The notes under the pieces are model-generated. The model had not been told where the DNA came from and made no database searches. It worked only from the letters and a program-made list of their open reading frames with translations. A stretch of 64,000 nucleotides of DNA from a virus (taxonomy: Duplodnaviria; Heunggongvirae; Uroviricota; Caudoviricetes): positions 131,216 through 195,215 of IMG/VR virus record IMGVR_UViG_3300049049_000146. One strand, written 5' to 3'. How positions within the stretch are numbered: position 1 is the first letter of the stretch; every line of letters starts with the position of its first letter. Positions 2,396 to 58,421 of this stretch are shown here, piece after piece. A program made the translations under genes and the position numbers.

Positions 2396-3586
2396 TCAGT
2401 CGTCCGACGCTTCGTTGCCGATCAGCTTGCGATTCTCGGCGTCCTCCTGGATAAGCTCGTGAAGCTCATCCTTGGTCATCCGAGAGCCGCGCTTCTCGTT
2501 CTCCAGGATGCCGCGACGCACGGCCAGGCCGATGAGCGTCTCCTTGCTCATCTCATCGAAGGGCACACGCTGGAGAGCCATCGTGCGCACCACGATATCC
2601 TTGCCGAGGAATCGCGCCTCGTTCGTCGAGAGGAAGAATCCGGCGTACGTCGCCTCGCGGCAGATATCGTCACGATTCATCGCAGCGAACTTCTCCATTC
2701 GCGCTTCGAGCGTGCCGTGCTCCTGCCGGATGATGTACTCCTTCTCCTCCTCGCGATAATCGCTCTCGACCTCCTCGAAATCGTCCTCGCCGGTCATCTC
2801 CGAATCGTCGTAGACCGGACGTGACAGATCCTCGGTGCCGCTGTAGACCGAGACGACCTCGTACTGGCAGGTACGAAGCTTCTGCGCGTCGTGATTCGGG
2901 ACCGAGACGGCGTCTCGCGGATTCACCTTGAGCAGCACGACGACGCCGTCCGAGCCAGCCCAGTTACGGGCGTAGCTCAGCGTGCCGACGTGGAGACCAG
3001 CACCGCAGCTGTTGCTGCGATTGTCGTCCACCTGCTCACGCGGCATCGAGACGGTCGTACCGACCTTCTGAAGCACGGTGCCGGTGTGCTTGTCGTAGAA
3101 ATCCCTGCGGAGACCCTTGTACCCGAGGAAGCACCCGTCGTTGGTCAGCGGGAACTTACCCTTGTCAAGGAAATCGAAAAGCGCCTTCGCGCTCTCGATG
3201 CTCGGATTCTCCGACAGGTTCACCGCAAATCGAACGAAGCCCTCGTACGGAAGGTTTCGCTCGTACAGCTGAACGATGCGGTCGGTCAACGAGTTGTGCA
3301 TCGGACGGCCCTTCACGAGCACCTGGCCGTCCTTCACCTCGATATCGCGGATGCCGAACTTGTCCAGCGTCTTGTTGAGCACATTGACACGTGTCTCGCT
3401 GACGAGGCGCTCAAGCTCGGCGCAGCGCGCCTCTTCCTGTTCGTCGGTCTCGTTCTCCGGCGAACGCATCAGCTTGCTGATCTGTGCGTAATTCCGGTGG
3501 TCATCAGTGACCGCGTGGTGCTTACCGCGAAGGACGAGAGAAATCATCCCTCCGGCGAAATGGAAACCTACCAAGCCCTTAGCCAT
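2396..3586 (-). CDS. rIIB: rIIB-like protector from prophage-induced early lysis
   Basis: FLGYKG...VSMPREQVDDNRSNSCGAGLHVG...VNPRDAVSVP..QKLRTCQYEV core; directly downstream of rIIA. Confidence 0.9.
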   Translation of the reverse strand: MAKGLVGFHFAGGMISLVLRGKHHAVTDDHRNYAQISKLMRSPENETDEQEEARCAELERLVSETRVNVLNKTLDKFGIRDIEVKDGQVLVKGRPMHNSLTDRIVQLYERNLPYEGFVRFAVNLSENPSIESAKALFDFLDKGKFPLTNDGCFLGYKGLRRDFYDKHTGTVLQKVGTTVSMPREQVDDNRSNSCGAGLHVGTLSYARNWAGSDGVVVLLKVNPRDAVSVPNHDAQKLRTCQYEVVSVYSGTEDLSRPVYDDSEMTGEDDFEEVESDYREEEKEYIIRQEHGTLEARMEKFAAMNRDDICREATYAGFFLSTNEARFLGKDIVVRTMALQRVPFDEMSKETLIGLAVRRGILENEKRGSRMTKDELHELIQEDAENRKLIGNEASDD

Positions 3587-3596
3587 TCGATCCTCC

Positions 3597-5837
3597 TCAC
3601 ACGGCCTTCTTCTTGACGATTGCGTAGCCTTCGGCCTTCAGCATGTGCATCTTGTCCATGAACGTGACGTACTTGATGATCTTTTCCTGAGCGTGCTTCT
3701 TCTCGACGTGCTCAAGCGAGAACACGAGCATCGGATAACGCTCGATGATCGGCAGGAAGATATCGTGCTTCAGATCGACCGGTCGATCCCACGTGAGAGT
3801 GAAGTGATTGACGTGCCACTGCTTCAGCGCTGCGAGGTAACCAAGCTTCGCCTTCTTCAGCGCCAGGCGATTCAGCTGGTCCATGTACTTCGTGATGAAC
3901 GAATCCTTCGGCAGCTTCTTCGCCAACGACACGAGAGCGTCGAAGGCACGCGTCGGGAAATTGTACATCACGTCGCTGTACGGACGAACAATCGCGTCGG
4001 TGTCGTAACGATCCAGGTCGTGCTTATAGAAGCGGTGCGCCCGGCGCAGGTCAGCGTCCTCTTCCCACGTCTCCCAGATCTGCTCGCGAATCCACTCGCC
4101 AAGCTCGTACCATTCACCGTGCTCACGGAACTTCTTCAGGTCGGCGGTCCTGATTCCGTAGACCGGCGTCGGGTCGTCGTCATCCATTTCACGAAGCTTA
4201 CGAAGCGCTTCGATATCGTGGCCGAGGGCATTCGCCTTGAGTTCGCCGACATGTCCGGTATTCACCGGATTCCAGTGGCGAAGCTCGACGTAGATACCAC
4301 CACCGTCGAGATCGATATCCACGGGCACCCAGGACTGATCGGACGAACCACCGCCACGCTTGTACTGGAAGCACTTCGCACGCACACCGGAGAGAGCGCT
4401 GCGGCGGCCACCGGGACCACCACCGCCACCGATGCGCTTGTAGACGAGCTTCGGAATCTGCGACGCCGGCTTGAGGTAGGTCTCATCGAAGCCCATCGCC
4501 TCGATGAAATCCTTCTTCAATTCGTCACTCTGGCACGAGACCAGGTAAACGTAATCGTCGTCCTGGTAGACGAGCGACGAAGCGTCGTCGTCAACACTGC
4601 GCAGATTCTTGATGTACGTGGAAATCCGCTGCTCAGCGCCAGGGAAATCCGCGTAGTAGAGAGCGACGCCGTCCTCGGGGACGATCTTATCGACCTGCTG
4701 GTACGAAACCTTGCGCTTCGTCGAGGAGCTACGACGACGGCCCGCCTTTTCGGTGACCGTCATCTTCTTGATCACGGTACCCTTCGGCACCGAAATCTGC
4801 GGCGTGACCTTCTGCCCGTTCCACTCGGGAACGATCTTCAGGTCCTTCAGCGACGTGGTCGAAATGAGCGACCACATCTTCATGCGAGCGTCCCAGAGAT
4901 TCTTCGCTCCGGTGATCTGCGACGTAACGTGATCCACGATTTCGTCGTAGATCTGGTCGAGGCGCTCGGAGATCGACTGAATCGAATACTTCGTCCAGCT
5001 GATCGACTCACGAGACGGCGTCATCTGGAATGCCCCGAGCGGGAATTCCACGTGGACGCACAGCTTCATCACCTGACGAGCGTTCTCCGAGAACTGCTCC
5101 TGGTCGACCAGGGGATACTCGACGTTCCCCATGATCGCGAGCGACTCGTGAGAGCCGCGGTCTCGGATGATTCGCCAGCCCTTACCTTCCAGGTAAGCCT
5201 CGGGAGGCTCACGCCAGGTGAAGTCCCCGATACCGCCCTTGACGATCGGGCGAACAGCGAAGGGGGCGAGCGCCGCCTCAGCCGCATTCTGGAACTTCCG
5301 GAAATCGGCCGGCTTGACCGCGAAGAAAACTTCGAGGCCATTCGCCTCGTCCGTCTCCTCCTGGGCCACACGAACGAAGTCGGGTGTGCCGTCCTCGTCG
5401 ACGACGTTTGCGTACGTCGTCTTCATCCCGTCGAAATACGAGATGACCGTCCAGCTTTGCGTGTAAGCGAACGGCGTCTTCGAGCCGAGACCGAAACAAC
5501 CGGTCTGCGTATTCGTGTTACGCTTGGTCGACTTGAAGTACGACTTGTAGATCCCGAACATGTCCTCGTCCGACAGTCCGGTTCCGAAATCGCGAATCCG
5601 GAAAGTCGGGTCGAGATGATTCGGTAGCTGCACGATGAACTGCGTTTCGGGATTTCCTGCAGCAACGTGCGAGTCAGCAGCGTTACACGCTAGCTCACGG
5701 ACAATGGCCTTTTCCTTGTCCGAGTACATTCCGGAGGACAGCGTGTCGAACGCGAACGCGTTCATCTCAGCGCTGTACGCTTCCTTCTTGAATCCACCGC
5801 TGGATTCGACCTTCGAACTATTGACCTTTACCTGCAT
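3597..5837 (-). CDS. rIIA: rIIA-like protein (GHKL/HATPase N-terminus)
   Basis: LSSGMYSDK..AIVRELACNAADSH, IRDFGTGL, STK, GCFGLGSKTPFAYT, NGLEV. Confidence 0.92.
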   Translation of the reverse strand: MQVKVNSSKVESSGGFKKEAYSAEMNAFAFDTLSSGMYSDKEKAIVRELACNAADSHVAAGNPETQFIVQLPNHLDPTFRIRDFGTGLSDEDMFGIYKSYFKSTKRNTNTQTGCFGLGSKTPFAYTQSWTVISYFDGMKTTYANVVDEDGTPDFVRVAQEETDEANGLEVFFAVKPADFRKFQNAAEAALAPFAVRPIVKGGIGDFTWREPPEAYLEGKGWRIIRDRGSHESLAIMGNVEYPLVDQEQFSENARQVMKLCVHVEFPLGAFQMTPSRESISWTKYSIQSISERLDQIYDEIVDHVTSQITGAKNLWDARMKMWSLISTTSLKDLKIVPEWNGQKVTPQISVPKGTVIKKMTVTEKAGRRRSSSTKRKVSYQQVDKIVPEDGVALYYADFPGAEQRISTYIKNLRSVDDDASSLVYQDDDYVYLVSCQSDELKKDFIEAMGFDETYLKPASQIPKLVYKRIGGGGGPGGRRSALSGVRAKCFQYKRGGGSSDQSWVPVDIDLDGGGIYVELRHWNPVNTGHVGELKANALGHDIEALRKLREMDDDDPTPVYGIRTADLKKFREHGEWYELGEWIREQIWETWEEDADLRRAHRFYKHDLDRYDTDAIVRPYSDVMYNFPTRAFDALVSLAKKLPKDSFITKYMDQLNRLALKKAKLGYLAALKQWHVNHFTLTWDRPVDLKHDIFLPIIERYPMLVFSLEHVEKKHAQEKIIKYVTFMDKMHMLKAEGYAIVKKKAV

Positions 5838-9145: not shown

Positions 9146-9407
9146 GTCGCTTCTGCTCCTCCGTCGTCGGCGGTCTCGGTCCTGCCTGTTCGGTGGGATC
9201 GATGACGGCGACGCTGTCGCCTACCATCGCCATCTGCTTATCGAACTGCTTTTCGATTTGACTGAGCAGTTCCTTGTTCGGCTTCTTACCATTCTCGCCG
9301 AACACGCAGCCCGCACAGAGATCGGCACCGTTCGGCCCGTAAGGGCGCAGTTCACGGCTACCCTTCCCTCCGGGCTGCTTGCACTTACAGCAGTGCCTCT
9401 CAGACAT
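9111..9407 (-). CDS. small Zn-finger-like protein
   Basis: HCCKCK...LRPYGPNGADLCAGC. Confidence 0.6.
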   Translation of the reverse strand: MSERHCCKCKQPGGKGSRELRPYGPNGADLCAGCVFGENGKKPNKELLSQIEKQFDKQMAMVGDSVAVIDPTEQAGPRPPTTEEQKRLKRRGKPGVPS

Positions 9408-10533
9408 ACTCCGTGGCCCCCTTGCGGAGGAGGTACTCCTCGCTGACGCTCTTCAGCTGCACACGCCCACCGCAGCAAAGAGCGCTGCCGCTGACCGGAG
9501 AAATCGCGAAATCCTCCCGCTCGAAGATGGGGCGGAACACGATTCCCTCACGCATGTGCGCCTCCTTGCCGGAGACCGTCTCCTTGCCGCTCGTGTACTC
9601 CTCGATGACTTCCTTCGAGTACGGGCCCCGGTAGAGCACCGGCACACGGGGAATGTCGAGGTCACGGCAATACGAAGTGAGCGTCGCGTCGTTGCAGAAC
9701 TTCCCGGAACCAGGCTCTCCAACGTAGATGTCGAAGATCCGGAATCCGATCGTCTCGTTCTTGCCGACGTTCGCTCCGTAGTTGAGATCCTGGCAGCCAG
9801 CGCCGAAGATTTCCCCGCAGATGAATACGGGAAGGTTGCCCTCGTCTCCGACCAGATTCCAGAATACCCGGTCCATACGCTCTTCGAGCTTGAGCGCCTT
9901 CGCCGTACGGACGTAGAGATTCTTCTCGTTCTCCGGCGCGTCCATCTTGAAGGCAAGGCCCTTCCAGGCCATTCCCTTCGACGACACGACGAGACGACTC
10001 TCATCCTGAGGCTGAAGGCTCTTCGGCATGAGCCCGAAGATTGCGAACGTGCCGTGCACCTTCTCGGTGATGACGATGATTTCGTCGTCCTTGAAGGTGT
10101 CCGGGAAATTCTTCCAGTTCTCCACGTCGTAACGGAGGAGACGACGACCAGTCGCATTGTAGACTGCACCGCTGAAGCCAGCAGGAATGGGCGGCTCGTA
10201 CTTCGTCACTCCAAGAATCTCGGTGACGTCGTCGCCTTCCTTCCAGCCCTCGCGCGCCGGGTAGCAGATTCCCTGACTGAGAACGCCGCGCAGGCGCACC
10301 GCCTTGACGCGATTGAACTCAGGTCCGGCGAGCTTCCCCCCAAGCCCAAGCTCCTCGATGAGAGGCTTAGGACAGAGTGCGCCCTCGGGAATGTACGCAA
10401 CTAGGTCGCCGGTCTTGTAGAGTCCCTTACCGACAACAGCGCGGTACCCGCCGACCTTGGCGCACTCCAGCTTGTCAGCATTCTCATGCGGTCCGATTTC
10501 GATCGGAACCACGCGCACACCGAACGTCGACAT
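9400..10533 (-). CDS. RNA ligase, DRB0094/Rnl5-like family with N-terminal OB fold
   Basis: HENADKLECAKVGGYRAVVGKG OB domain; motif I TEKVHGT; GEIFG, FDI, REGIVFRP, LKSVSEEYLL. Confidence 0.9.
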   Translation of the reverse strand: MSTFGVRVVPIEIGPHENADKLECAKVGGYRAVVGKGLYKTGDLVAYIPEGALCPKPLIEELGLGGKLAGPEFNRVKAVRLRGVLSQGICYPAREGWKEGDDVTEILGVTKYEPPIPAGFSGAVYNATGRRLLRYDVENWKNFPDTFKDDEIIVITEKVHGTFAIFGLMPKSLQPQDESRLVVSSKGMAWKGLAFKMDAPENEKNLYVRTAKALKLEERMDRVFWNLVGDEGNLPVFICGEIFGAGCQDLNYGANVGKNETIGFRIFDIYVGEPGSGKFCNDATLTSYCRDLDIPRVPVLYRGPYSKEVIEEYTSGKETVSGKEAHMREGIVFRPIFEREDFAISPVSGSALCCGGRVQLKSVSEEYLLRKGATEYV

Positions 10534-10814
10534 CAGCGACTCTCCACGAAATAGACGGTGCCTTCCATCATCCCCCACGAGGACGATTCCTGGAACGTGT
10601 ACGTCACCGGCTCCTCGCCTTCCTGAAGCGGACGAGTGAGGTACCAGAGGTCGTCGTCCTTCCAGGTCGCCAGAATGATGTGCTGACCGCGAGGAAGATT
10701 CACCGTCGTCTCACCGCCCCACGTACGGGCCGACTGGTTGTCGGTGCACGACACCAGCAGACTCACCGTGAGCACTGAAAGAACGAATCCGAGAATACCT
10801 ACCTTGAGCTTCAT
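10533..10814 (-). CDS. conserved phage lipoprotein
   Basis: Lipobox LVSC then ARTWGGETTVNLP.GQ....TWKDDDLWYLTRP. Confidence 0.7.
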   Translation of the reverse strand: MKLKVGILGFVLSVLTVSLLVSCTDNQSARTWGGETTVNLPRGQHIILATWKDDDLWYLTRPLQEGEEPVTYTFQESSSWGMMEGTVYFVESR

Positions 10815-43345: not shown

Positions 43346-43534
43346 TCAGCGGAAATCAAACCCACGGAGCGTCGAACGCTCCTTCTTCGCCAGAGACATG
43401 CGGAGCTTTCGCACCGAAGTCTTCCGCGCCGTCGGACGGCAATCACCACCCCAGGGAGGGAGAGCCCCGAATCGAGTCTCGTGCTCGATTGCCTCAGGCA
43501 CGTCCTCATCGTTCTTTTTCTTCTTGTCGCTCAT
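43346..43534 (-). CDS. hypothetical protein
   Basis: ATGA-coupled to pncB. Confidence 0.5.
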   Translation of the reverse strand: MSDKKKKNDEDVPEAIEHETRFGALPPWGGDCRPTARKTSVRKLRMSLAKKERSTLRGFDFR

Positions 43535-44877
43535 ACGCTGTTCTCGATGTCGGATGCGGCTTCGCGAAGATAGTAACTGACGTTCTGAGCGTAGCTCTTG
43601 AACTCAGAAACCCTCTTTACAGCATGCGAGCGGGTATCCTGAAGAGAAGTTCGGTCGATGCTGGGCCTCGGAAGACGATCGCTCATGATCGTGTAGGTCT
43701 TCCCGCTGTTCCTGTACTCGTGAGCGATCGGGTCTCGCTCCGTGTAGTGAAAGAGCGTGTCGGTGACCTTGCCGTCCTCCACGCGCCGAACGACGACCTT
43801 CTCGCCCGGCAAATTCGACTTGCCTCCCTGCTGCACCTTCATCACGGGACGCGAGGGGGCGTTGTCTTCGCCGAATACCTCGACGATCTTGTAGACGAAT
43901 CCGGGGCTGTGGTGCGACGCGACCACCTTCGTGCCCACGCCATACCCGTCGACCGGAACATTCTTCTGCGTGTACAGACGAATCGTCTGCTCGTCCATCT
44001 CGTTCGAGACGAAGATTTTCGTCTCCGAGAATCCCATGATGTCCAGTTGACGCCGGGCAGCGAACACCGTATTCGCGTCCCCGGAATCGATCCGGATAGC
44101 GGACAGCGGAATCCGAAGCTCAAGCGAAGCACGCATCGCATTCGCGACACCCTGCTCGATGTTGTAGGTATCGACGAGGAGCGTGTGCTTCTCGGGGAAC
44201 GCTTGGATGAAATCCTTGAAGGCGTGAAGCTCGCCCTTGACGCCGTCGCCGTAGCTGAGGACGTAGGCGTGAGCCATCGTGCCGGAGATCGGAATTCCGT
44301 AACGACGACCCGCTTCGACGTTCGAAGTAGCGTCGAAGCCACCGATGTACGCCGCGAGAGCGGCATGCACAGCGGCCTCGGGGTCAAGACGTCGCGACCC
44401 GAACTCGATCAGCGTCTTGCGGGGAACCTCGCGACGAATACGCGAAGCAACCGTCGCAACTCGACACATGTGATTCAGCATTCCGCAGATCGGCGTCTCG
44501 ATGAGCTTCACGAGAGCGGCGGGGCCGCGAACCTGCACGGCGGGCACGTTCGGAAGCAGAAGCTCACCGTCCGGAACGACGTGAATATCGAGGTCCGAAA
44601 GACGTGCGTCGTTCCGCAGCCACACCAGGAAGTCAGTGTCAACAATGCGGAAAGCATCCGAAATGTAGTCGACCTCTTCCTTCGTGAAGAGCTTGTCCTG
44701 GTGCCTCGCCACGAAATCGTGGATGGGATTGAACCCGCCCATCAGGATGTAGTTCCACCCCTCAGGGAGCTTCCGGAAAAAGGCTTCCGCAGTAACCTTC
44801 CGGTTGATGTTCCCAGACTTCCAGTGCGCATAGGCCATGGAAATCTGGTACGCATCCGTGTGCAGCGCGCCAATCAT
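43531..44877 (-). CDS. pncB: nicotinate phosphoribosyltransferase
   Basis: LHTDAYQISM, EAFFRKLP, IETP, EFGSRR, GFDATSNV, GTMAH, LVDTY, IRIDSGD, YGVGT, VYK (NAPRTase-type, not NadV SEHS-type). Confidence 0.92.
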   Translation of the reverse strand: MIGALHTDAYQISMAYAHWKSGNINRKVTAEAFFRKLPEGWNYILMGGFNPIHDFVARHQDKLFTKEEVDYISDAFRIVDTDFLVWLRNDARLSDLDIHVVPDGELLLPNVPAVQVRGPAALVKLIETPICGMLNHMCRVATVASRIRREVPRKTLIEFGSRRLDPEAAVHAALAAYIGGFDATSNVEAGRRYGIPISGTMAHAYVLSYGDGVKGELHAFKDFIQAFPEKHTLLVDTYNIEQGVANAMRASLELRIPLSAIRIDSGDANTVFAARRQLDIMGFSETKIFVSNEMDEQTIRLYTQKNVPVDGYGVGTKVVASHHSPGFVYKIVEVFGEDNAPSRPVMKVQQGGKSNLPGEKVVVRRVEDGKVTDTLFHYTERDPIAHEYRNSGKTYTIMSDRLPRPSIDRTSLQDTRSHAVKRVSEFKSYAQNVSYYLREAASDIENSV

Positions 44878-44886
44878 GATGACCTC

Positions 44887-45762
44887 TCAGAAGAACGAAC
44901 GAACCGAATCACGCGACGGGCCCGGAGGGGGCGACGCCTTGTGACGCGAAACACGCTCAGCGTGGTAGGTCTTCTCGATGACCTCCAGCTGGCGCTTCGT
45001 GAACGCCGTGTACCGATCAGCGAATACGGCGAACGAGCCGCATTCCTCACGAGCCGCGAGGACGTTCGACGAATCGTTCAGTTGGGTCACCCACTCGATT
45101 TCCTGGTAGGTGATTCCAAGCTCGCCTTCGTCGGTCTGGCCTGCATCGGGGCCCCAGAGATCGGCCGTGGGGACCGCCTTCACGATCGACTGAGGCACGC
45201 CGAGGTAATCCGAAAGTGCCCAGACCTCGCTCTTGTGGAGGCACACGATCGGGTTGTTGTCGACGGCTCCGTCTCCGCGCTTCTGGTAATATCTGAAAAG
45301 CGCGTCCTCGTCGCGATTGCCGGTGCCGTACACCAGGCCGCTGTGCTTCTTGCCGAAGTAATCGAGAACAGGGGCGCGGAGACAGCTGCGAAGAGCGCCC
45401 TCCTCCGCCCGCTGCTGACTCACACCGGCGAACCTTCCGTTGCCCCACTGCTGCGCGGCCTGCCCGACGATCGACTTGAACGCGTCCTGAAGGTCGATCT
45501 CGTACTCGATGAACTTGAAGCCCTTCGAGCGCATCGCCTCGAAAAGCTCATTCGCACGATCGATCGAATCGCGGCTCGATCCGCAGGGCATCTTTACGCC
45601 TACGGTCAGCGGGAGAGCACGAACGCAGAGCGCAAAGACGAGTGCGCTGTCGACGCCGCCGCTGATTCCAACGACGCCATGCGGGAGGCCAGACGCCTTC
45701 GCCTGGTCCTGAATCCAGCCGACCAGGTGCTGTGTAAGACCCTCGTAATCCTTGATTTCCAT
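44887..45762 (-). CDS. nadE: NH3-dependent NAD+ synthetase
   Basis: VVGISGGVDSA, GTGNRDE, Y.K.GDG..D..PI..LHKSEV..L..YLGVP..I....PTADLW...QTDE.ELG.TY. Confidence 0.93.
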   Translation of the reverse strand: MEIKDYEGLTQHLVGWIQDQAKASGLPHGVVGISGGVDSALVFALCVRALPLTVGVKMPCGSSRDSIDRANELFEAMRSKGFKFIEYEIDLQDAFKSIVGQAAQQWGNGRFAGVSQQRAEEGALRSCLRAPVLDYFGKKHSGLVYGTGNRDEDALFRYYQKRGDGAVDNNPIVCLHKSEVWALSDYLGVPQSIVKAVPTADLWGPDAGQTDEGELGITYQEIEWVTQLNDSSNVLAAREECGSFAVFADRYTAFTKRQLEVIEKTYHAERVSRHKASPPPGPSRDSVRSFF

Positions 45763-49344: not shown

Positions 49345-49383
49345 CAAAACAGAAAAGGCGCCCCAGCTTTCGCCAGAGCGCCT
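49345..49383 (-). terminator. intrinsic terminator ending the TROVE unit
   Basis: AGGCGCTCTGGC-GAAA-GCTGGGGCGCCT followed by TTTCTGTTTT. Confidence 0.75.
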
Positions 49384-49392
49384 CTTCCTTGA

Positions 49393-49620
49393 TTAGTCGT
49401 CGTTCCGAAGAAGGCGGTCCGCCATCTCATCGGATATCTGAAAAGGATCAGAAGGAGCTTCGGGTTCCGAATTCCAATCGGGGCCTAACAGACTTTCCAT
49501 TCGACGGTAGAAGTCGCGCCGCGACTTATAGGCATGGTACCTAGTCAGGGCGGCGCGACAGAGCCATCCAAGAAGGAACGAAAGAACCAGCGCGAGACAC
49601 GCTACTGCGTTGCTACTCAC
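49393..49620 (-). CDS. small single-TM protein coupled to the TROVE gene
   Basis: N-terminal TM; GTGA overlap. Confidence 0.55.
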   Translation of the reverse strand: MSSNAVACLALVLSFLLGWLCRAALTRYHAYKSRRDFYRRMESLLGPDWNSEPEAPSDPFQISDEMADRLLRNDD

Positions 49621-51311
49621 TCAGCAGTCGCCTCTTCCTCCGCGGCCACCTTCATGACCGGAGGAGCAGAGAACTCGATCTTCTCGATCTCTTCGACCCA
49701 GAACTTCGCGTCCTTCTGCTTGACGAAATTCTCGATTACCGGCCACACGGCGTCGCTGAATCCGCCGATGTTCAGAATCGAGCCAGCCTGGTCGGCTGCC
49801 TGCGTAGTGGAGTTCGGGCTGATGTCGATGTTGATCAGCTTGGCGTTCGGGTTGCGGGAGCGGATCTGCTGCCAGAGCGCCTCCTTACCCGTCGTCAGCT
49901 GACGCTGACCGAAACCATAGCCCGTGTAGTACGAGCGATCTGCCCACGACTCGTTGTCCGAGATGAACAGAACGACGTCTGCCTTGTTGCCCGACTTCAC
50001 GATGTGGTCGAGAGCGAGCGACAGGTTCGTTCCACCGCCACCGAACTTACGAAGCTTGTTCGCGTTCGTCATGACGGAGTCACGCGGCTCCGGACGGTAA
50101 TTCGTGTGAAGCTGGGTATCCACAGGAATTACGTGAGCGTGACGGCTCGTACGGAGAATCGACGCCGCCACGAGGGCCGCGACATCCACGTACGTCATCT
50201 TCGAGGTCGCCGTACCACGGTTACCCGTGACCGGAGAACCCATCGAACCGGAGACGTCCGGGAAGACCCAAACCTCTCCATCGAGTGCCGGCACATTCTT
50301 CGTCGCGATTTCCATCGCGTCGTGGAGCGCGTCGATCAGCGGACGCGGAATATCCGCGCTGTCCTTCGTCATGGTGTACGCCATGAACAGCTGGTACGGG
50401 AACGCCTTGGCGCGGGCGATCTCCTCGGCGTTGCTGAGCTTCGCCGCCAGCTTCTTCACAACCTCCTTATCCTTCAGCACGCCGTGGCGCGCAAAGGTAT
50501 TGAGGTTCATCCTGACGAAGTGCCAGCCGCCATTCAGAGCGATCTCAGTCCACTGCGCAGTTCCGAGGTCCAGAGCCGTGAGCATCTGGAACGGCACCTT
50601 CGGAACAGGAGCGTTCTTCGGATCCTTCTTGAATGCCTCGAACTCGCGAACGAGGGGCGGCAGATTCTCGTTGGTCTCCCAACCCTTCTTCTCCAGAAGG
50701 TAATCGTAGAGCGCCGACTTCTGCTTATCCGAGCCGCTCTTCGGGTGCGCCAGCTTCATGAGGTCAACGAGCGAGGGGCTCTGACCCACGGAGCTACGGA
50801 AGATCGCGTGAGCGTTGTGCGACTCGAACCAGCTGGAGACGAGATTCTTGCCCGAGGTACCGAGGGACTTACGCCCCATCTGACCCGAGCGCACGATCTG
50901 GACGAAGTTCTTCACCATCTTCGCGTTGTCACACGCGATCGGGAAGACCGCCTGGAGCGTACGACGAGCGACCTCGTCGCCTGCACCCGCGCGAGCGAAA
51001 AGCATCGCGCAGAGCATGGCCGGCGTATCCTTCATGAAGGCGCTCTGACGAGCGTAGACCGCAAGCTTTCCGAGGAAAGCCGAGTCCACCTTCTGAGCGT
51101 GCTCCATGACCTGCTTCAGCTGGTCTTCAGCCGAGGTGTAGAACGTATTCGAGAACGTGCCGGTGCACGCCAGCTGCGCGAGCGCAGCCTTGCTCTCGAA
51201 CTTGAACGCTACACCACCCGCAGCGTTGCGAGTGACAGCGCCGCTCGCATCCACAGCCGCACGCGGCTTCTTCCCACGACCCGCTGAACCGAACAGATTC
51301 TTGTTTGCCAT
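49617..51311 (-). CDS. rsr: Ro60/Rsr (TROVE + vWA) RNA-binding protein
   Basis: N.AGG.AF, LAQLACTG.F..TFY, KLAVYAR, KDTP, RSGQMGRKSLG, FVRMNLNTFARHG, FPYQL, PDVSGSM, VL.ISDNESW; AGGAGG RBS at true start MANKNLF. Confidence 0.93.
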   Translation of the reverse strand: MANKNLFGSAGRGKKPRAAVDASGAVTRNAAGGVAFKFESKAALAQLACTGTFSNTFYTSAEDQLKQVMEHAQKVDSAFLGKLAVYARQSAFMKDTPAMLCAMLFARAGAGDEVARRTLQAVFPIACDNAKMVKNFVQIVRSGQMGRKSLGTSGKNLVSSWFESHNAHAIFRSSVGQSPSLVDLMKLAHPKSGSDKQKSALYDYLLEKKGWETNENLPPLVREFEAFKKDPKNAPVPKVPFQMLTALDLGTAQWTEIALNGGWHFVRMNLNTFARHGVLKDKEVVKKLAAKLSNAEEIARAKAFPYQLFMAYTMTKDSADIPRPLIDALHDAMEIATKNVPALDGEVWVFPDVSGSMGSPVTGNRGTATSKMTYVDVAALVAASILRTSRHAHVIPVDTQLHTNYRPEPRDSVMTNANKLRKFGGGGTNLSLALDHIVKSGNKADVVLFISDNESWADRSYYTGYGFGQRQLTTGKEALWQQIRSRNPNAKLINIDISPNSTTQAADQAGSILNIGGFSDAVWPVIENFVKQKDAKFWVEEIEKIEFSAPPVMKVAAEEEATAE

Positions 51312-51350
51312 AACGAACCTCCTGACAGAGACATTCAGGTAAGAGAATTT

Positions 51351-51451
51351 GAAGGGCACGCCCCTAGTGGGATTCGAACCCACACCACTCGTACTAAGCT
51401 CTCTTGTTAGAGAACGCGCTTCCCTAGCGACCCGGGGCCTCCGTGCCATTC
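51351..51451 (-). ncRNA. anticodon-less tRNA-like RNA with extended acceptor helix (Y-RNA candidate)
   Basis: GAATGGCAC..GCCCC/GGGGC-GTGCCCTTC; D-like CGCT-AGGGA-AGCG; GTTCTCT-AACA-AGAGAGC; T-arm GTGGG-TTCGAAT-CCCAC. Confidence 0.65.
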
Positions 51452-51482
51452 GGTGCATCCGCAACCTGCGAGAGCGACCCAC

Positions 51483-51579
51483 ACCCCTACTTGAATTCGT
51501 TCGGGTAGCAGGTGTACTGAGTGCCTTTTACGGTGATCGGCTCCGTTTTTCCGATGTTCTGCCCTTGAACTATAGGGGC
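51483..51579 (-). ncRNA. degenerate tRNA-like element
   Basis: GCCCCTA/TAGGGGT, TA, D-arm GTTC-AAGGGCA-GAAC, ATCGG/CCGAT stem with 10-nt loop; no recognisable T-arm. Confidence 0.4.
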
Positions 51580-51588
51580 TGAGAAAGC

Positions 51589-51653
51589 CTGGCGACAGAA
51601 AATGATGTGAGGGGTATCGGTTGCAGTGATGTACTCACATCGGCATTCGCCAG
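51589..51653 (-). ncRNA. minimal Y RNA (YrlB-like)
   Basis: CTGGCGA/TCGCCAG and GATGTGAG/CTCACATC stems; GGCGAATG matches the recalled Rsr-binding GNCGAAN0-1G motif; internal loop resembles that of the YrlA candidate. Confidence 0.75.
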
Positions 51654-51662
51654 AGAAAAAGT

Positions 51663-51798
51663 GCGGCAACAGAAGGTGATGAGTTTAGTTTTACGCGCTC
51701 TACCAGGCTGAGCTATCCCCTGATAAAGCCAGGGGAGCAGGATTTGAACCTGCGACCTCGTCCTCCCAATGGATGTAAACCCATCGAGCATTTGCCGC
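51663..51798 (-). ncRNA. yrlA: YrlA-type Y RNA (circularly permuted tRNA mimic)
   Basis: Terminal stems GCGGCAA/TTGCCGC and GATGGGTTTA/TAAACTCATC enclose T-arm (GCAGG-TTCAAAT-CCTGC), loop-closed acceptor (TCCCCTG-GCTTTAT-CAGGGGA) and D-arm (GCTC-AGCCTGGTA-GAGC), in T-AS-D order. Confidence 0.88.
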
Positions 51799-51804
51799 GA
51801 AGCC

Positions 51805-51821
51805 TACTATCGTCGGACTTT
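51805..51821 (-). promoter_or_regulatory. class A promoter-like motif, copy 8
   Basis: AAAGTCCGACGATAGTA, 6 nt before the YrlA 5' stem. Confidence 0.8.
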
Positions 51822-51908
51822 GCAGTCGACGTGCCACCAAGAAACGCAGGCGTTTCGTGGAAGGCGGGGAGTGTAGCCTATCTTCTTGGATAGGCAAGCG
51901 GATAAACA

Positions 51909-52208
51909 CTATCCGCTAGTATCAATGCGCTCGACGACGTCTTCGTAGAGAGCGCGCACCGTGAGGGCACCGAGGGTTAGATCGTCCGGAGACGACTCGA
52001 CCAGGCCACGATACTGGTGGTCGAAGAAGCCGTAGAACGCGTCGCGTGCCTCCTCGTACGTCTTGCCGTACGTAAAGATGCTGTAGCGCGAAGCAGTGAG
52101 GATGTGGTCGCCCTCACCCGTGACCTCGTATCGAGCGACTAGCTTGCCGGATACGAGCACGTATACACGGTCCCCGTATGGGATCCTATCGAACGAAACA
52201 CTGTCCAT
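51909..52208 (-). CDS. hypothetical protein (HicB-like TYGKTYEEA segment)
   Basis: IFTYGKTYEEARDAF. Confidence 0.55.
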   Translation of the reverse strand: MDSVSFDRIPYGDRVYVLVSGKLVARYEVTGEGDHILTASRYSIFTYGKTYEEARDAFYGFFDHQYRGLVESSPDDLTLGALTVRALYEDVVERIDTSG

Positions 52209-52212
52209 CGGA

Positions 52213-52281
52213 TTTGGGGCGCGGGATTCGAACCCGCATTTGCGTGCATGCAGCGCCGTCCTACCGTTGAACGAGCCCCGA
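52213..52281 (-). pseudogene. degenerate tRNA-like element (possible Cys GCA)
   Basis: Good D-arm GTTC/GGAC and T-arm GCGGG-TTCGAAT-CCCGC; anticodon arm only 3 bp around CTGCATGCA; acceptor mismatch. Confidence 0.5.
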
Positions 52282-52408
52282 CAGATGAGCCGCTAAGCAC
52301 ATCTGCTTGCTTTCTTTCCCGCCGTCAGTGGTCTTCCCCACAGCCAACCTCACATTCGGGTGAGGTGCCCTATCCCGTACGTCCGGCCGGGCCGCACAGG
52401 CAGGTTAG

Positions 52409-52970: not shown

Positions 52971-53270
52971 TTACCATGCTAGACCATCCTTCAACCGATC
53001 TAGCGTCTTCTTCGAGTAGGTGAATTTGTCTCGCGACCAACCTTCACTTGCCGGGTACTCTCGGATGAATCGAATGATCTGATTCTCCTCAAAGGTGAAT
53101 CGGGTCTCACGATTCCTTCCGTACCTGACCCAGGAGTTGTCTTCCTGATTGAAGCCGTTCAGGGCCCACAACCGGGAAAGCTCGGCCTTGATTTTCGTCT
53201 TGAACGCTTCGGTGCGAAACGCCATGTGAACCTCAGAGCAAGGGCAGGTGCCCGACGAAGGGGGCAGCAA
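52971..53270 (-). CDS. hypothetical protein (start probably near 53225)
   Basis: ORF track. Confidence 0.5.
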   Translation of the reverse strand: MLPPSSGTCPCSEVHMAFRTEAFKTKIKAELSRLWALNGFNQEDNSWVRYGRNRETRFTFEENQIIRFIREYPASEGWSRDKFTYSKKTLDRLKDGLAW

Positions 53271-53601
53271 CGTCCTTAGGCATCGGCTGAAGCCCGAGTA
53301 CCGTTACAGTGTTCGGCTCTACGTGATTTCTACCTTCGTCGACTACCACGGAGGCAAAGTACCAGTGCTTATCAAGCTGGTCTTTTACCGCGAGTAGCTC
53401 TTCGAGGTTCTTAGCCTTCAACACGATCTTGGCGTAGCTGGTGACCTCCCATTCCTCTACCCACTTGACGTGGTCCGTCGACCCTTTCTTGTCGACGAGG
53501 CGTAGAGCGAGGTGCACTCCGTGACCGACCTGCGCCGCAATCTTTCCCTTCGGCATACCTAGATCGGTACGCACGATGATGTATTGAACGATTTCGGACA
53601 T
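53233..53601 (-). CDS. pth2: peptidyl-tRNA hydrolase type 2
   Basis: QYIIVRTDLGMPKGKIAAQVGH, KIVLK, V.DEGRN.V.PNTVTVLG. Confidence 0.92.
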   Translation of the reverse strand: MSEIVQYIIVRTDLGMPKGKIAAQVGHGVHLALRLVDKKGSTDHVKWVEEWEVTSYAKIVLKAKNLEELLAVKDQLDKHWYFASVVVDEGRNHVEPNTVTVLGLQPMPKDVAAPFVGHLPLL

Positions 53602-57408: not shown

Positions 57409-57834
57409 TTACACTTCCCACATACGCTCGCGGACGATCTCGATTAAGTCATCGAGAATTTCCGTGTGCGCCTGGGCCTTGATTGCCTCTTCAAACTTCC
57501 GGGAGCCAACTGCACGCTGCTCCTGCTTCTGCGCCGTCTTCTTCATCTTCTGAAGACGAGTGAGGAACTCCTTACGCATGCGTGTCGTTGCGAAGAAGTC
57601 GATCTCGAACTCGTGCGCAACGACCGCACGAACCAGCACGAGATTGTCCTTCGAGAAGATGACACTGACATGGTCGCCTCGCTGAGGGGGACGACGCAGA
57701 CCGTCTGAATGCCAAACGGTCCCGTCAAAGTCGAACTTCTCCATTCCGATACGAACAACGCCACGAAGCGTAGCGGAGTTGTATTTCGAAACGATGCCCT
57801 TCTTCGCGATCGTCTTCACATCGATGTGGTTCAC
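57409..57834 (-). CDS. hypothetical protein with OB/cold-shock-like N-terminus
   Basis: GIVSKYNS...GVVRI...P.RGDHVSV. Confidence 0.6.
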   Translation of the reverse strand: MNHIDVKTIAKKGIVSKYNSATLRGVVRIGMEKFDFDGTVWHSDGLRRPPQRGDHVSVIFSKDNLVLVRAVVAHEFEIDFFATTRMRKEFLTRLQKMKKTAQKQEQRAVGSRKFEEAIKAQAHTEILDDLIEIVRERMWEV

Positions 57835-58421
57835 AGGAATTCCTCCGCCTTATCGCCGTAACGCTCCTTCACCTTCGCTACCCAAGCCTGATTCTTGACC
57901 TTGAACATGAAGGGAGGAGTCCATTTCTTGTTCGAGGGGATCTTGCAGACAACACCCTCGAACGTCTGCCCGGGAAACTCACCAGATCGGATCTGGGACT
58001 CGATCTCCTTGTTGAAGTTCCCCTGGTGGATGAGCTTAGCCGCGTCAGGAAACAGATCGATGAAATCGCGCACATCAAGCAGACCCTGCTTGTACACGTC
58101 GACATCGATCAGCTTGACCACGTGGGGCTCATCCTCGTGCAGACCCGCAAACGAATTCGGTCCGTAGAATTCGAAGAAACAGGTGACCTTCTGCCACCGC
58201 TGCTTTTCGAAAATCGGCGCAAGCGCATCCGTCTGTTCGTGGATGAGCTTGATTGCCTCTCCGAGCAGACTATCGGGGCCGATCAGAACCTTACGCGACC
58301 CGAATTTGTCGAACCCCTTCTTGCGGGTCCACTCAGCACGAATATTTGAACCGTCGAGCTTTTCGAACATGTAGCAGGGGCCGTAGCGGCAATCCCTACT
58401 AATCGTCGGATACTGCTTCAT
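57831..58421 (-). CDS. minimal ATP-dependent RNA ligase (Rnl2-like adenylation domain)
   Basis: Motif I FEKLDGSNIR; FGSR; FFEFYG; IDV; EGVVCK; FKVK. Confidence 0.8.
   Translation of the reverse strand: MKQYPTISRDCRYGPCYMFEKLDGSNIRAEWTRKKGFDKFGSRKVLIGPDSLLGEAIKLIHEQTDALAPIFEKQRWQKVTCFFEFYGPNSFAGLHEDEPHVVKLIDVDVYKQGLLDVRDFIDLFPDAAKLIHQGNFNKEIESQIRSGEFPGQTFEGVVCKIPSNKKWTPPFMFKVKNQAWVAKVKERYGDKAEEFL

What the first reader, a model, noticed from the sequence alone, without database searches (positions are those of the whole stretch)
49617..51821. Phage-encoded Ro60/Rsr unit with its own promoter and a tandem array of Y RNAs
Seen in transcription order: class A motif (51805-51821), a YrlA-type RNA (51663-51798) with T-arm, loop-closed acceptor stem and D-arm in permuted order inside long terminal stems, a 65-nt minimal Y RNA (51589-51653), two further tRNA-like elements, the TROVE gene, a small TM gene and a terminator. 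The two Y RNAs have similar internal loops (GGCRAATGC...GATG / CATCAYYTTCTGT). Established: bacterial Rsr binds Y RNAs, YrlA mimics tRNA, and Y RNA tethers Rsr to PNPase. rsr-yrl often lies near rtcB, and a few phages carry them. Inference: a self-contained RNA quality-control or decoy RNP with up to four RNA partners, working with the phage's non-RtcB ligases.
Basis: partly seen in the sequence, partly recalled or inferred. Interest (0 to 1): 0.82.

Follow-up and report, generated by a model that had tools for sequence, protein, structure and literature searches.

The report
Giant phage Ro60 with Y RNAs
A 424-kb phage carries a gene for the ring-shaped RNA-binding protein Ro60/Rsr preceded by two of its partner "Y RNAs", and nine more Y RNA genes sit among the phage's tRNA genes; phage Ro60 with Y RNAs is already known, so this is a well-supported but not new kind of system.

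Summary
On the minus strand lie a phage promoter-like motif (51805-51821), a YrlA-type Y RNA (51662-51799), a short Y RNA (51588-51654), a Ro60/Rsr gene (49617-51311), an orphan small ORF and a terminator-like hairpin. Rfam's YrlA model matches both RNAs full-length, below its gathering score. A model built from the phage's own copies finds ten Y RNAs in the 424-kb genome, and a motif scan adds an eleventh. Pairing is kept in 93-95% of cells, against 39-50% in slid controls, and 28-29 of 30 pairs show compensatory changes.

Nine of the eleven lie 14-20 kb from rsr, each 1-9 nt from a tRNA gene or another Y RNA. A related 407-kb phage and the cultured Myxococcus phage Mx1 show the same layout.

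The two "further tRNA-like elements" lack the Rsr-binding handle. One is a tRNA-shaped RNA, the other is unsupported. "Up to four partners" is therefore the wrong count.

Phage Ro60 with Y RNAs is published (Chen 2014; Thermus phage phiLo 2025). Bacterial relatives carry 3-6 tandem Y RNAs beside rsr. This scan has noted Ro60-like genes with partner-RNA arrays in phage tRNA arrays before, on other DNA. Verdict: new member of a known kind, moderate interest.

The parts
51805..51821 (-). Phage promoter-like motif AAAGTCCGACGATAGTA, ending 5 nt before the first Y RNA
   Evidence: 11 copies in the window with up to 3 mismatches (expected 0.13). 43 copies in the genome, all on the gene strand, mostly 20-50 nt before an SD and start codon, and also before tRNA and Y RNA genes.
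51662..51799 (-). YrlA-type Y RNA: closing stem plus GGCAAAUGC/CUGUUGCC handle, second stem, then T-arm, loop-closed acceptor-like stem and D-arm
   Evidence: Rfam YrlA 50.4 bits, E 3e-10, full-length. R1 123.7 bits, as one of R1's six training sequences. Fold z -2.87. Covariation.
51588..51654 (-). Short Y RNA (handle GGCGAAUGC/CUGUCGCC plus one distal stem, no tRNA-like domain)
   Evidence: Rfam YrlA 24.1 bits, E 0.012, with the tRNA-like part deleted. R1 42.2 bits, E 1e-7; it was not in R1's training set. Fold z -3.7, 0 of 200 shuffles as good.
51483..51582 (-).
   Evidence: No Rfam or R1 hit. Fold z -1.2. No paralogue or relative found.
51351..51451 (-). tRNA-shaped RNA (ARAGORN 51359-51438) with a perfect T-arm, a D-arm, and a 7-bp stem with AACA loop (or an 8-nt loop CU-AACA-AG); the acceptor is extended by a flanking 5-bp helix. 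Probably a processing handle or an odd tRNA, not a Y RNA.
   Evidence: ARAGORN tRNA-??? with anticodon aaca. Rfam tRNA 19.2 bits against a cut-off of 29. Fold. R1 matches only the T-arm.
51318..51342 (-). Small hairpin CCUGA-AUGUCUCUG-UCAGG whose 3' arm runs into the rsr Shine-Dalgarno sequence; it carries the handle letters GAAUG...CUGUC
   Evidence: Motif scan. R1 gives only 3.4 bits. Absent from 94 related rsr leaders. Speculative.
49617..51311 (-). Ro60/Rsr gene (564 aa; TROVE HEAT-repeat ring plus vWA domain with MIDAS DVSGS)
   Evidence: Pfam. PHROG 850 at 1.9e-35. PDB phiLo Ro60 at 3e-12 and D. radiodurans Rsr at 2e-10. Model pLDDT 80, best fold matches all Ro60, 2NVO TM 0.74.
49393..49620 (-). 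Orphan 75-aa ORF with a hydrophobic N-terminal helix; its GTG start overlaps the rsr stop codon
   Evidence: Translation. No Pfam family. No homologue in 181 fetched loci. Whether it is a real gene is open.
49351..49388 (-). Terminator-like hairpin (17 pairs) followed by a T run

Best explanation
The locus is a phage copy of the Ro60/Rsr - Y RNA ribonucleoprotein system.

Transcription and processing (inferred): one transcript starts at the phage promoter-like motif and runs through a YrlA-type Y RNA, a short Y RNA, a tRNA-shaped element, the rsr mRNA and a small ORF to a terminator. Host tRNA-processing enzymes probably cut the tRNA-shaped element and so free the rsr mRNA from the RNAs.

RNA partners (shown by sequence and covariation): the same phage makes nine more Y RNAs from its tRNA arrays. 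Each lies 1-9 nt from a tRNA gene or another Y RNA, so RNase P and 3' tRNA processing would also define their ends. All eleven share one handle, a 7-bp closing stem with GAAUGC on the 5' side and CUGUC on the 3' side. This is the YrlA handle that Rsr is thought to bind.

Function (inferred from D. radiodurans, Salmonella and Thermus phage phiLo): Rsr binds the handle. The distal module, a permuted tRNA-like domain in seven copies, tethers the ring to host PNPase or other tRNA-recognising proteins, redirecting host RNA decay or quality control during infection.
For: Protein:
- TROVE and vWA_Ro60 domains.
- MIDAS D352/S354/S356 invariant in 16 homologues.
- Sequence hits to phiLo Ro60 and D. radiodurans Rsr.
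- The predicted fold matches only Ro60 structures at the top of the list.

RNAs:
- Full-length Rfam YrlA alignments.
- Model R1, built from six paralogues, finds four further copies that were not used to build it. A motif scan finds an eleventh.
- 20 of 30 pairs are compensatory among six paralogues of one genome.
- In 22 distinct sequences, 94.8% of cells are paired against 39-50% when slid.
- In 125 distinct sequences, 93.0% of cells are paired and 29 of 30 pairs are compensatory.

Layout:
- Map of tRNA and Y RNA junctions.
- The same interleaving is seen in a related 407-kb phage and in cultured phage Mx1.
- Promoter motif statistics.

Precedent:
- YrlA near Ro60 in 254 bacteria and 22 phages; Yrn2-tRNA-Yrn1 polycistron in D. 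radiodurans; RNase P cleavage of M. smegmatis YrlA (PMC4201824).
- phiLo Ro60 binds two upstream Yrl RNAs and forms a complex with host PNPase (PMC12135203).

No PNPase or RNase PH domain is encoded by this phage.
Against: - No expression, processing or binding data exist.
- All copies score below Rfam's gathering threshold for YrlA; the best is 57.8 bits against 69.
- The rsr-proximal YrlA reads GGCAAAUG rather than the published GNCGAA motif, though with a compensating change on the other strand.
- The alignments used for covariation were fitted to the model, which favours the structure.
- The PNPase tether is borrowed from other systems. The host is unknown.
- Nine of the eleven RNAs are unlinked to rsr, so their pairing with Rsr rests on the shared handle alone.
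Confidence: 0.8

Rival explanations
1. The Y RNA paralogues work mainly without Rsr, as tRNA-mimic decoys or sponges for host tRNA-recognising enzymes or tRNA-targeting defence nucleases. Their presence in the same genome as rsr would be only loosely related to what they do.
For: Nine of eleven lie 14-20 kb from rsr inside tRNA arrays. In the 407-kb relative none is beside rsr. The tRNA-like heads differ: most have a class I type D-arm, two have a tRNA-Leu-type D-arm, and one retains an anticodon-arm-like hairpin. The window also holds RNA ligases and Pth2, a tRNA-repair setting.
Against: Every copy, including the four without a full tRNA-like domain (three short, one mid-size), keeps the same handle with compensatory changes in its stem. 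That is the part specific to Rsr-associated RNAs. The same RNA family sits directly beside rsr in about 100 bacterial and metagenomic loci. In most copies the anticodon loop, the target of most tRNA nucleases, is missing.
Confidence: 0.1
2. One reading: the two tRNA-like elements between the short Y RNA and rsr are additional Rsr partners, giving a self-contained four-RNA RNP.
For: They lie in the same transcription unit. Element B has a perfect T-arm and no standard 7-nt anticodon loop. M. smegmatis YrlB also carries a T-arm (PMC4201824).
Against: Neither has the closing-stem handle. R1 with filters off matches only the T-arm of B (11.4 bits) and nothing in A. A folds no better than shuffles. 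No paralogue or homologue was found with which to test covariation.
Confidence: 0.08
3. The elements are decayed or rearranged tRNA genes (debris of the tRNA array) without a function of their own.
For: They contain tRNA pieces, and ARAGORN or Rfam tRNA models partly hit them.
Against: The closing stems and handle are not tRNA parts, yet they covary strongly across paralogues and across distant genomes. The family is conserved in phages whose Rsr proteins are only 42-48% identical.
Confidence: 0.02

Closest known systems
Bacterial and phage YrlA/YrlB Y RNAs with Rsr (Chen et al. 2014, PMC4201824; Rfam RF02553)
   Same: The same handle (CGAAUGC...UGUCG in a closing stem), the same permuted order of T-arm, loop-closed acceptor-like stem and D-arm, and the same strand and neighbourhood as the Ro60 gene for two copies. 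A long tRNA-mimic RNA is paired with a short hairpin RNA. Co-transcription with a tRNA occurs as in D. radiodurans.
   Different: Scores fall below Rfam's gathering cut-off. There are eleven copies for one rsr, nine of them 14-20 kb away and inserted between tRNA genes. The two rsr-linked copies lie upstream of the gene, whereas the closest bacterial relatives carry 3-6 tandem copies downstream. One copy retains a tRNA-Leu-like D-arm and an anticodon-arm-like hairpin. The Salmonella YrlB model (RF02565) does not hit the short RNAs in the window.
Thermus phage phiLo Ro60 with Yrl1 and Yrl2 (PMC12135203; PDB 9KOP, 9L5Y)
   Same: A phage-encoded Ro60 with two Y RNA-like genes directly upstream. 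No phage PNPase, so the host enzyme would be used. The protein is the best PDB sequence match (E 3e-12) and the MIDAS DVSGSM is identical.
   Different: Only about 19% identity in the structural alignment. According to that paper, phiLo's RNAs were identified by a CGAA motif and a stem-bulge-stem shape; no tRNA-like domain and no copies in tRNA arrays are reported there.
Myxococcus phage Mx1 Ro60-like gene (OR576727.2, WNM70118.1)
   Same: The closest cultured-phage protein (47% identity over 98%). It has at least two Y RNAs of the same family inside its tRNA array, about 11 kb from the gene.
   Different: A 170-kb genome. Its Y RNAs are not annotated, and one is annotated as a 40-aa hypothetical protein. 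No Y RNA was detected directly beside its gene (12 bits only).

Membership tests
Ro60/Rsr (TROVE) proteins | TROVE HEAT-repeat domain followed by a vWA domain | tested here: met
   Pfam TROVE 1.9e-6 and vWA_Ro60 7.7e-14, both above their cut-offs. PHROG 850 at 1.9e-35.
Ro60/Rsr (TROVE) proteins | MIDAS motif DxSxS in the vWA domain | tested here: met
   DVSGSM aligns to DVSGSM of phiLo Ro60. D352, S354, G355, S356 and M357 are invariant in 16 homologues.
Ro60/Rsr (TROVE) proteins | Ring-shaped fold like solved Ro60 structures | tested here: met
   AlphaFold model pLDDT 80, pTM 0.75. The top 13 Foldseek matches are all Ro60/Rsr: 2NVO E 1e-17 with TM 0.74, 9KOP with TM 0.72.
Ro60/Rsr (TROVE) proteins | Binds Y RNA and misfolded RNA; assembles with PNPase | not testable with these tools
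   Needs EMSA or pull-down. No PNPase or RNase PH domain is encoded by the phage.
YrlA Y RNAs (Rfam RF02553) | Score at or above Rfam's gathering threshold (69 bits) | tested here: not met
   50.4 bits for 51660-51798; the best copy in the genome scores 57.8 bits. The alignments are full-length (positions 1-114) with E from 3e-10 to 3e-13.
YrlA Y RNAs (Rfam RF02553) | 5' motif GNCGAA(N0-1)G within a closing stem (Chen 2014) | tested here: met
   Eight of eleven copies fit literally, for example GGCGAAUG, GACGAAUG, GCCGAAUG. The copy at 198865 reads GCUGAAUG. The rsr-proximal YrlA reads GGCAAAUG, with the paired base changed from C to U. The copy at 198966 reads ACCGAAUG.
YrlA Y RNAs (Rfam RF02553) | tRNA-like domain: T-arm, loop-closed acceptor-like stem, D-arm | tested here: met
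   Present in seven copies, including 51662-51799. T-stem cells are 98.5-100% paired and acceptor-like stem cells 92-95%, with compensatory changes.
YrlA Y RNAs (Rfam RF02553) | Encoded within about 4 kb of the Ro60 gene on the same strand | tested here: met
   Met for the two copies in the finding (277 and 351 nt upstream). The other nine are on the same strand but 14-20 kb away.
YrlA Y RNAs (Rfam RF02553) | Bound and stabilised by Rsr; tRNA-type modifications | not testable with these tools
   Needs experiments.
YrlB (Rfam RF02565) | Match to the Salmonella YrlB model | tested here: not met
   No hit in 51200-52000 at E up to 10. The short RNA resembles YrlB only in architecture.
tRNA (element at 51359-51438) | Rfam tRNA score of 29 bits or more and a 7-nt anticodon loop | tested here: not met
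   19.2 bits. The loop is 4 nt on a 7-bp stem, or 8 nt on a 5-bp stem.

The most novel reading that the evidence does not exclude
The eleven Y RNAs are not redundant. They would form a panel of adaptors that share one Rsr handle but display different heads: class I tRNA-like, tRNA-Leu-like with a retained anticodon-arm-like hairpin, T-arm only, or a plain hairpin. They would be matured by the tRNA-processing machinery because they are spliced into the tRNA arrays. A single phage Rsr ring could then be programmed for several different host partners or targets during infection. In this phage, a handle-like hairpin over the rsr Shine-Dalgarno sequence might also let free Rsr repress its own translation.
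Probability: 0.12. Interest if true: 0.7.

Novelty: new member of a known kind. Interest (0 to 1): 0.4.

Why it matters
What Ro60 - Y RNA particles do in bacteria is still largely unknown, and what they do for phages is unknown beyond one in vitro study.

This phage lineage offers a dense natural experiment: one Rsr and eleven differentiated Y RNAs whose ends are set by neighbouring tRNA genes. A cultured relative, Mx1 on Myxococcus, carries unannotated Y RNAs in the same layout, so processing, binding and knock-outs could be tested there.

The work also flags an annotation gap. Y RNAs in phage tRNA arrays fall below Rfam's threshold and get called as small proteins or odd tRNAs.

Tried and rejected
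- Megablast of the locus against 50,697 phage records gave no match.
- The two largest collections gave only relatives at or below 50% protein identity. The spacer elements at 51312-51587 therefore could not be tested for covariation. Their only other matches in the genome are T-arm matches to tRNAs.
- Autoregulatory hairpin over the rsr SD (51318-51342). A chance hit at that exact place is unlikely: about 6 chance hits occur per 848 kb of shuffled sequence. But R1 gives it 3.4 bits, and none of 94 related rsr leaders has such a hairpin. It is kept only as speculation.
- Candidate Y-like element at 52283-52362 and a motif hit at genome position 201733. Neither has R1 support or a convincing second stem. 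Both rejected.
- Idea that each Y RNA mimics its neighbouring tRNA. No systematic match was found. Only the copy beside tRNA-Asn had its own neighbour as best match, and two copies have tRNA-Leu-type D-arms though neither lies beside a tRNA-Leu gene.
- Reading element B as a four-base-decoding tRNA (anticodon AACA). A scan for TGTT sites that would join frames within 10 kb on either side gave four candidates. The two inspected need no shift, and the other two were not examined.
- The small TM ORF as part of the module: no homologue in any related locus.
- Supplementary tables of Chen 2014 and the 2020 Annual Review are not held, so the published maximum number of Y RNAs per genome could not be checked.
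Full report
**Setting.** The window is bases 131216-195215 of a 423,825-bp virus record with direct terminal repeats, rated complete. Genes run on the minus strand. PHROGs finds RIIA/RIIB and two RNA ligases. Pfam finds Pth2, NAD-salvage enzymes, an HNH nuclease and thymidylate synthase. ARAGORN finds 38 tRNA genes in the genome, most of them between 180 and 210 kb. It is a giant phage. The closest cultured-phage match for the gene in question is Myxococcus phage Mx1, at 47% identity.

**The protein.** The ORF from ATG 51311 to the stop at 49617 (564 aa) follows a GGAGG seven bases upstream.
- It carries the Pfam TROVE and vWA_Ro60 domains above their cut-offs.
- It matches phage family PHROG 850.
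- It matches the solved Ro60 of Thermus phage phiLo and Rsr of D. radiodurans by sequence, with an identical DVSGSM MIDAS motif. That motif is invariant in 16 homologues.
- An AlphaFold model built on that alignment (pLDDT 80) has only Ro60 structures as its top 13 matches.

The genome has one such gene. It has no RtcB and no RNase PH/PNPase domain.

**The two RNAs in the finding.** Rfam's YrlA model aligns end to end with 51660-51798 (50.4 bits, E 3e-10). With the tRNA-like part deleted, it also aligns with 51586-51653 (24.1 bits, E 0.012). Both are below the curated 69 bits.

The long RNA has these parts, in order:
- a closing stem with GGCAAAUGC on the 5' side and CUGUUGCC on the 3' side;
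- a second stem;
- a T-arm, GCAGG-UUCAAAU-CCUGC;
- an 8-bp stem closed by a small loop;
- a D-arm, GCUC-AGCCUGGUA-GAGC.

The short RNA keeps only the handle and one stem. It folds far better than shuffles (z -3.7).

**More copies.** A whole-genome YrlA scan gave further full-length hits outside the window. I aligned six of them (A2). RNAalifold found 30 pairs, 20 of them with compensatory changes among paralogues of this one genome.

The covariance model built from that alignment (R1) finds ten elements in the genome at E below 2e-7. Four of the ten were not used to build it. A simple handle scan (GAAUG...CUGUC with three flanking pairs) gave 16 hits on the gene strand and 1 on the other, against about 6 for both strands in shuffles. 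It added an eleventh element at 198966-198875, which has a T-arm.

In all there are seven YrlA-type copies, one mid-size copy and three short copies, all on the minus strand between genome positions 182.8 and 203.2 kb.

**Layout.** Only two copies lie beside rsr. The others lie 1-9 nt from a tRNA gene or from each other:
- tRNA-Trp | Y | Y | tRNA-His
- Y | Y | tRNA-Tyr
- Y | Y | tRNA-Asn
- tRNA-Asp | Y
- Y | tRNA-Leu
- promoter motif | tRNA-Gly | Y

Cleavage of the tRNAs by RNase P and the 3' processing enzymes would therefore also release the Y RNAs. That step is inference, with precedent in the D. radiodurans Yrn2-tRNA-Yrn1 precursor and in RNase P cleavage of M. smegmatis YrlA (PMC4201824).

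**Promoter.** AAAGTCCGNCGATAsTA occurs 43 times in the genome with up to 3 mismatches, always on the gene strand. It usually lies 20-50 nt before an SD and start codon, but it also precedes tRNA-Ser, tRNA-Gly and this Y RNA. The copy at 51805-51821 ends 5 nt before the closing stem of the YrlA-type RNA. That RNA could therefore be the 5' end of the primary transcript. No terminator-like site lies between it and rsr. One lies after the small ORF, at 49351-49388.

**Relatives.**
- Six IMG/VR contigs, 80 metagenome contigs and 64 bacterial genomes encode Rsr proteins 36-50% identical to this one.
- R1 finds Y RNAs on the same strand in nearly all of them.
- In bacteria such as Rhizobium, Ensifer, Devosia, Luteolibacter and Nannocystis they form tandem arrays of 3-6 directly after rsr.
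- A 407-kb phage with terminal repeats has at least six, all in its tRNA array 26-32 kb from rsr and abutting tRNA 3' ends.
- Mx1 has at least two in its tRNA array. Neither is annotated, and one overlaps a called 40-aa protein.
- On model-guided alignments, 94.8% of cells are paired in 22 sequences and 93.0% in 125 sequences, against 39-50% when partners are slid. Compensatory changes occur in 28 and 29 of 30 pairs.
- These alignments are fitted to the model, which favours it. The MAFFT/RNAalifold result does not have that bias.

**The spacer elements.** Element B (51359-51438) has a perfect T-arm, a D-arm and a stem-loop that can be read in two ways: 7 bp with an AACA loop, or 5 bp with an 8-nt loop CU-AACA-AG. 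A 5-bp helix formed by the flanks extends its acceptor stem. It has no handle, and R1 matches only its T-arm. I read it as a tRNA-type processing signal that frees the rsr mRNA, or as an unusual tRNA.

Element A (51483-51582) is not supported by any model or by its folding energy.

**Mechanism.**
- Shown: a Ro60 orthologue, and a family of eleven structured RNAs that carry the YrlA handle under purifying selection.
- Inferred from established work: Rsr binds the handle, and the distal module tethers the ring to host PNPase or to tRNA-recognising proteins (D. radiodurans and Salmonella in PMC4201824; phiLo in PMC12135203).
- Open: what the phage gains, and whether the eleven heads have different partners. 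Two copies have a tRNA-Leu-type D-arm, and one of these keeps an anticodon-arm-like hairpin.

**Novelty.** Phage Ro60 with Y RNAs is published for mycobacteriophages, CcrColossus, phage G and phiLo (PMC4201824, PMC12135203). Jumbo-phage TROVE proteins have also been noted (PMC7824862). This scan has already reported Ro60-like genes with multi-copy partner RNAs in phage tRNA arrays on other DNA.

What is added here:
- a clean case that belongs to the canonical YrlA family;
- the copy number of eleven;
- the tRNA-punctuated layout shared with a cultured phage;
- the finding that the closest bacterial relatives carry 3-6 tandem copies.

I did not find these last points in the papers I could read, but I could not check the supplementary tables or the 2020 review.

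Noticed in passing
G000 genome 196861-203171 (beyond the window end; locus L011 1646-7956): Nine further Y RNA genes of the same family are interleaved with tRNA genes, each 1-9 nt from a tRNA or another Y RNA. Three share a 3' flank ACUAAU.
   Followed up: yes
L186 1669-1794 and 2021-2126 (Myxococcus phage Mx1, OR576727.2 45168-45293 and 45520-45625): Two unannotated Y RNAs lie in the tRNA array of a cultured phage. The second starts 2 nt after tRNA-Ile and overlaps the annotated 40-aa hypothetical protein WNM70101.1, which is probably a miscall.
   Followed up: partly
L140 4061-4887, L150 4109-4928 and other bacterial loci (Rhizobium, Ensifer, Devosia, Luteolibacter, Nannocystis): Tandem arrays of 3-6 Y RNA model hits lie directly downstream of rsr, on the same strand. 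That is more than the one or two Y RNAs per species described in the paper I could read.
   Followed up: partly
L011 5426-5580 (genome 200641-200795): This Y RNA contains a stretch closely resembling the 5' half of the phage's own tRNA-Leu(CAA): the acceptor strand, the D-arm and an anticodon-arm-like hairpin with loop CAAAAA. It looks like a permuted tRNA-Leu.
   Followed up: partly
window 51359-51438: The tRNA-shaped element before rsr can be read with an 8-nt anticodon loop CU-AACA-AG (four-base anticodon). The 407-kb relative has a tRNA with anticodon CUGG (L023 2876-2949). The TGTT frame-joining scan gave four candidates; two were inspected and need no shift.
   Followed up: partly
window 51318-51342: The hairpin CCUGA-AUGUCUCUG-UCAGG carries the Y RNA handle letters and overlaps the rsr Shine-Dalgarno sequence. 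It is not found in 94 related leaders.
   Followed up: yes
window 52213-52281 and 52283-52362: ARAGORN calls a 69-nt tRNA-Met that Rfam's tRNA model misses at its threshold. Just upstream is a handle-like GAAUG...CUGUC pair with no model support.
   Followed up: partly
window 2399-5837, 9403-10578, 43534-45762, 53236-53601, 57834-58421: RIIA/RIIB, an Rnl1-like and an Rnl2-like RNA ligase, NAPRTase plus NAD synthase, and peptidyl-tRNA hydrolase Pth2 together form a translation and RNA-repair accessory set around the tRNA region.
   Followed up: no
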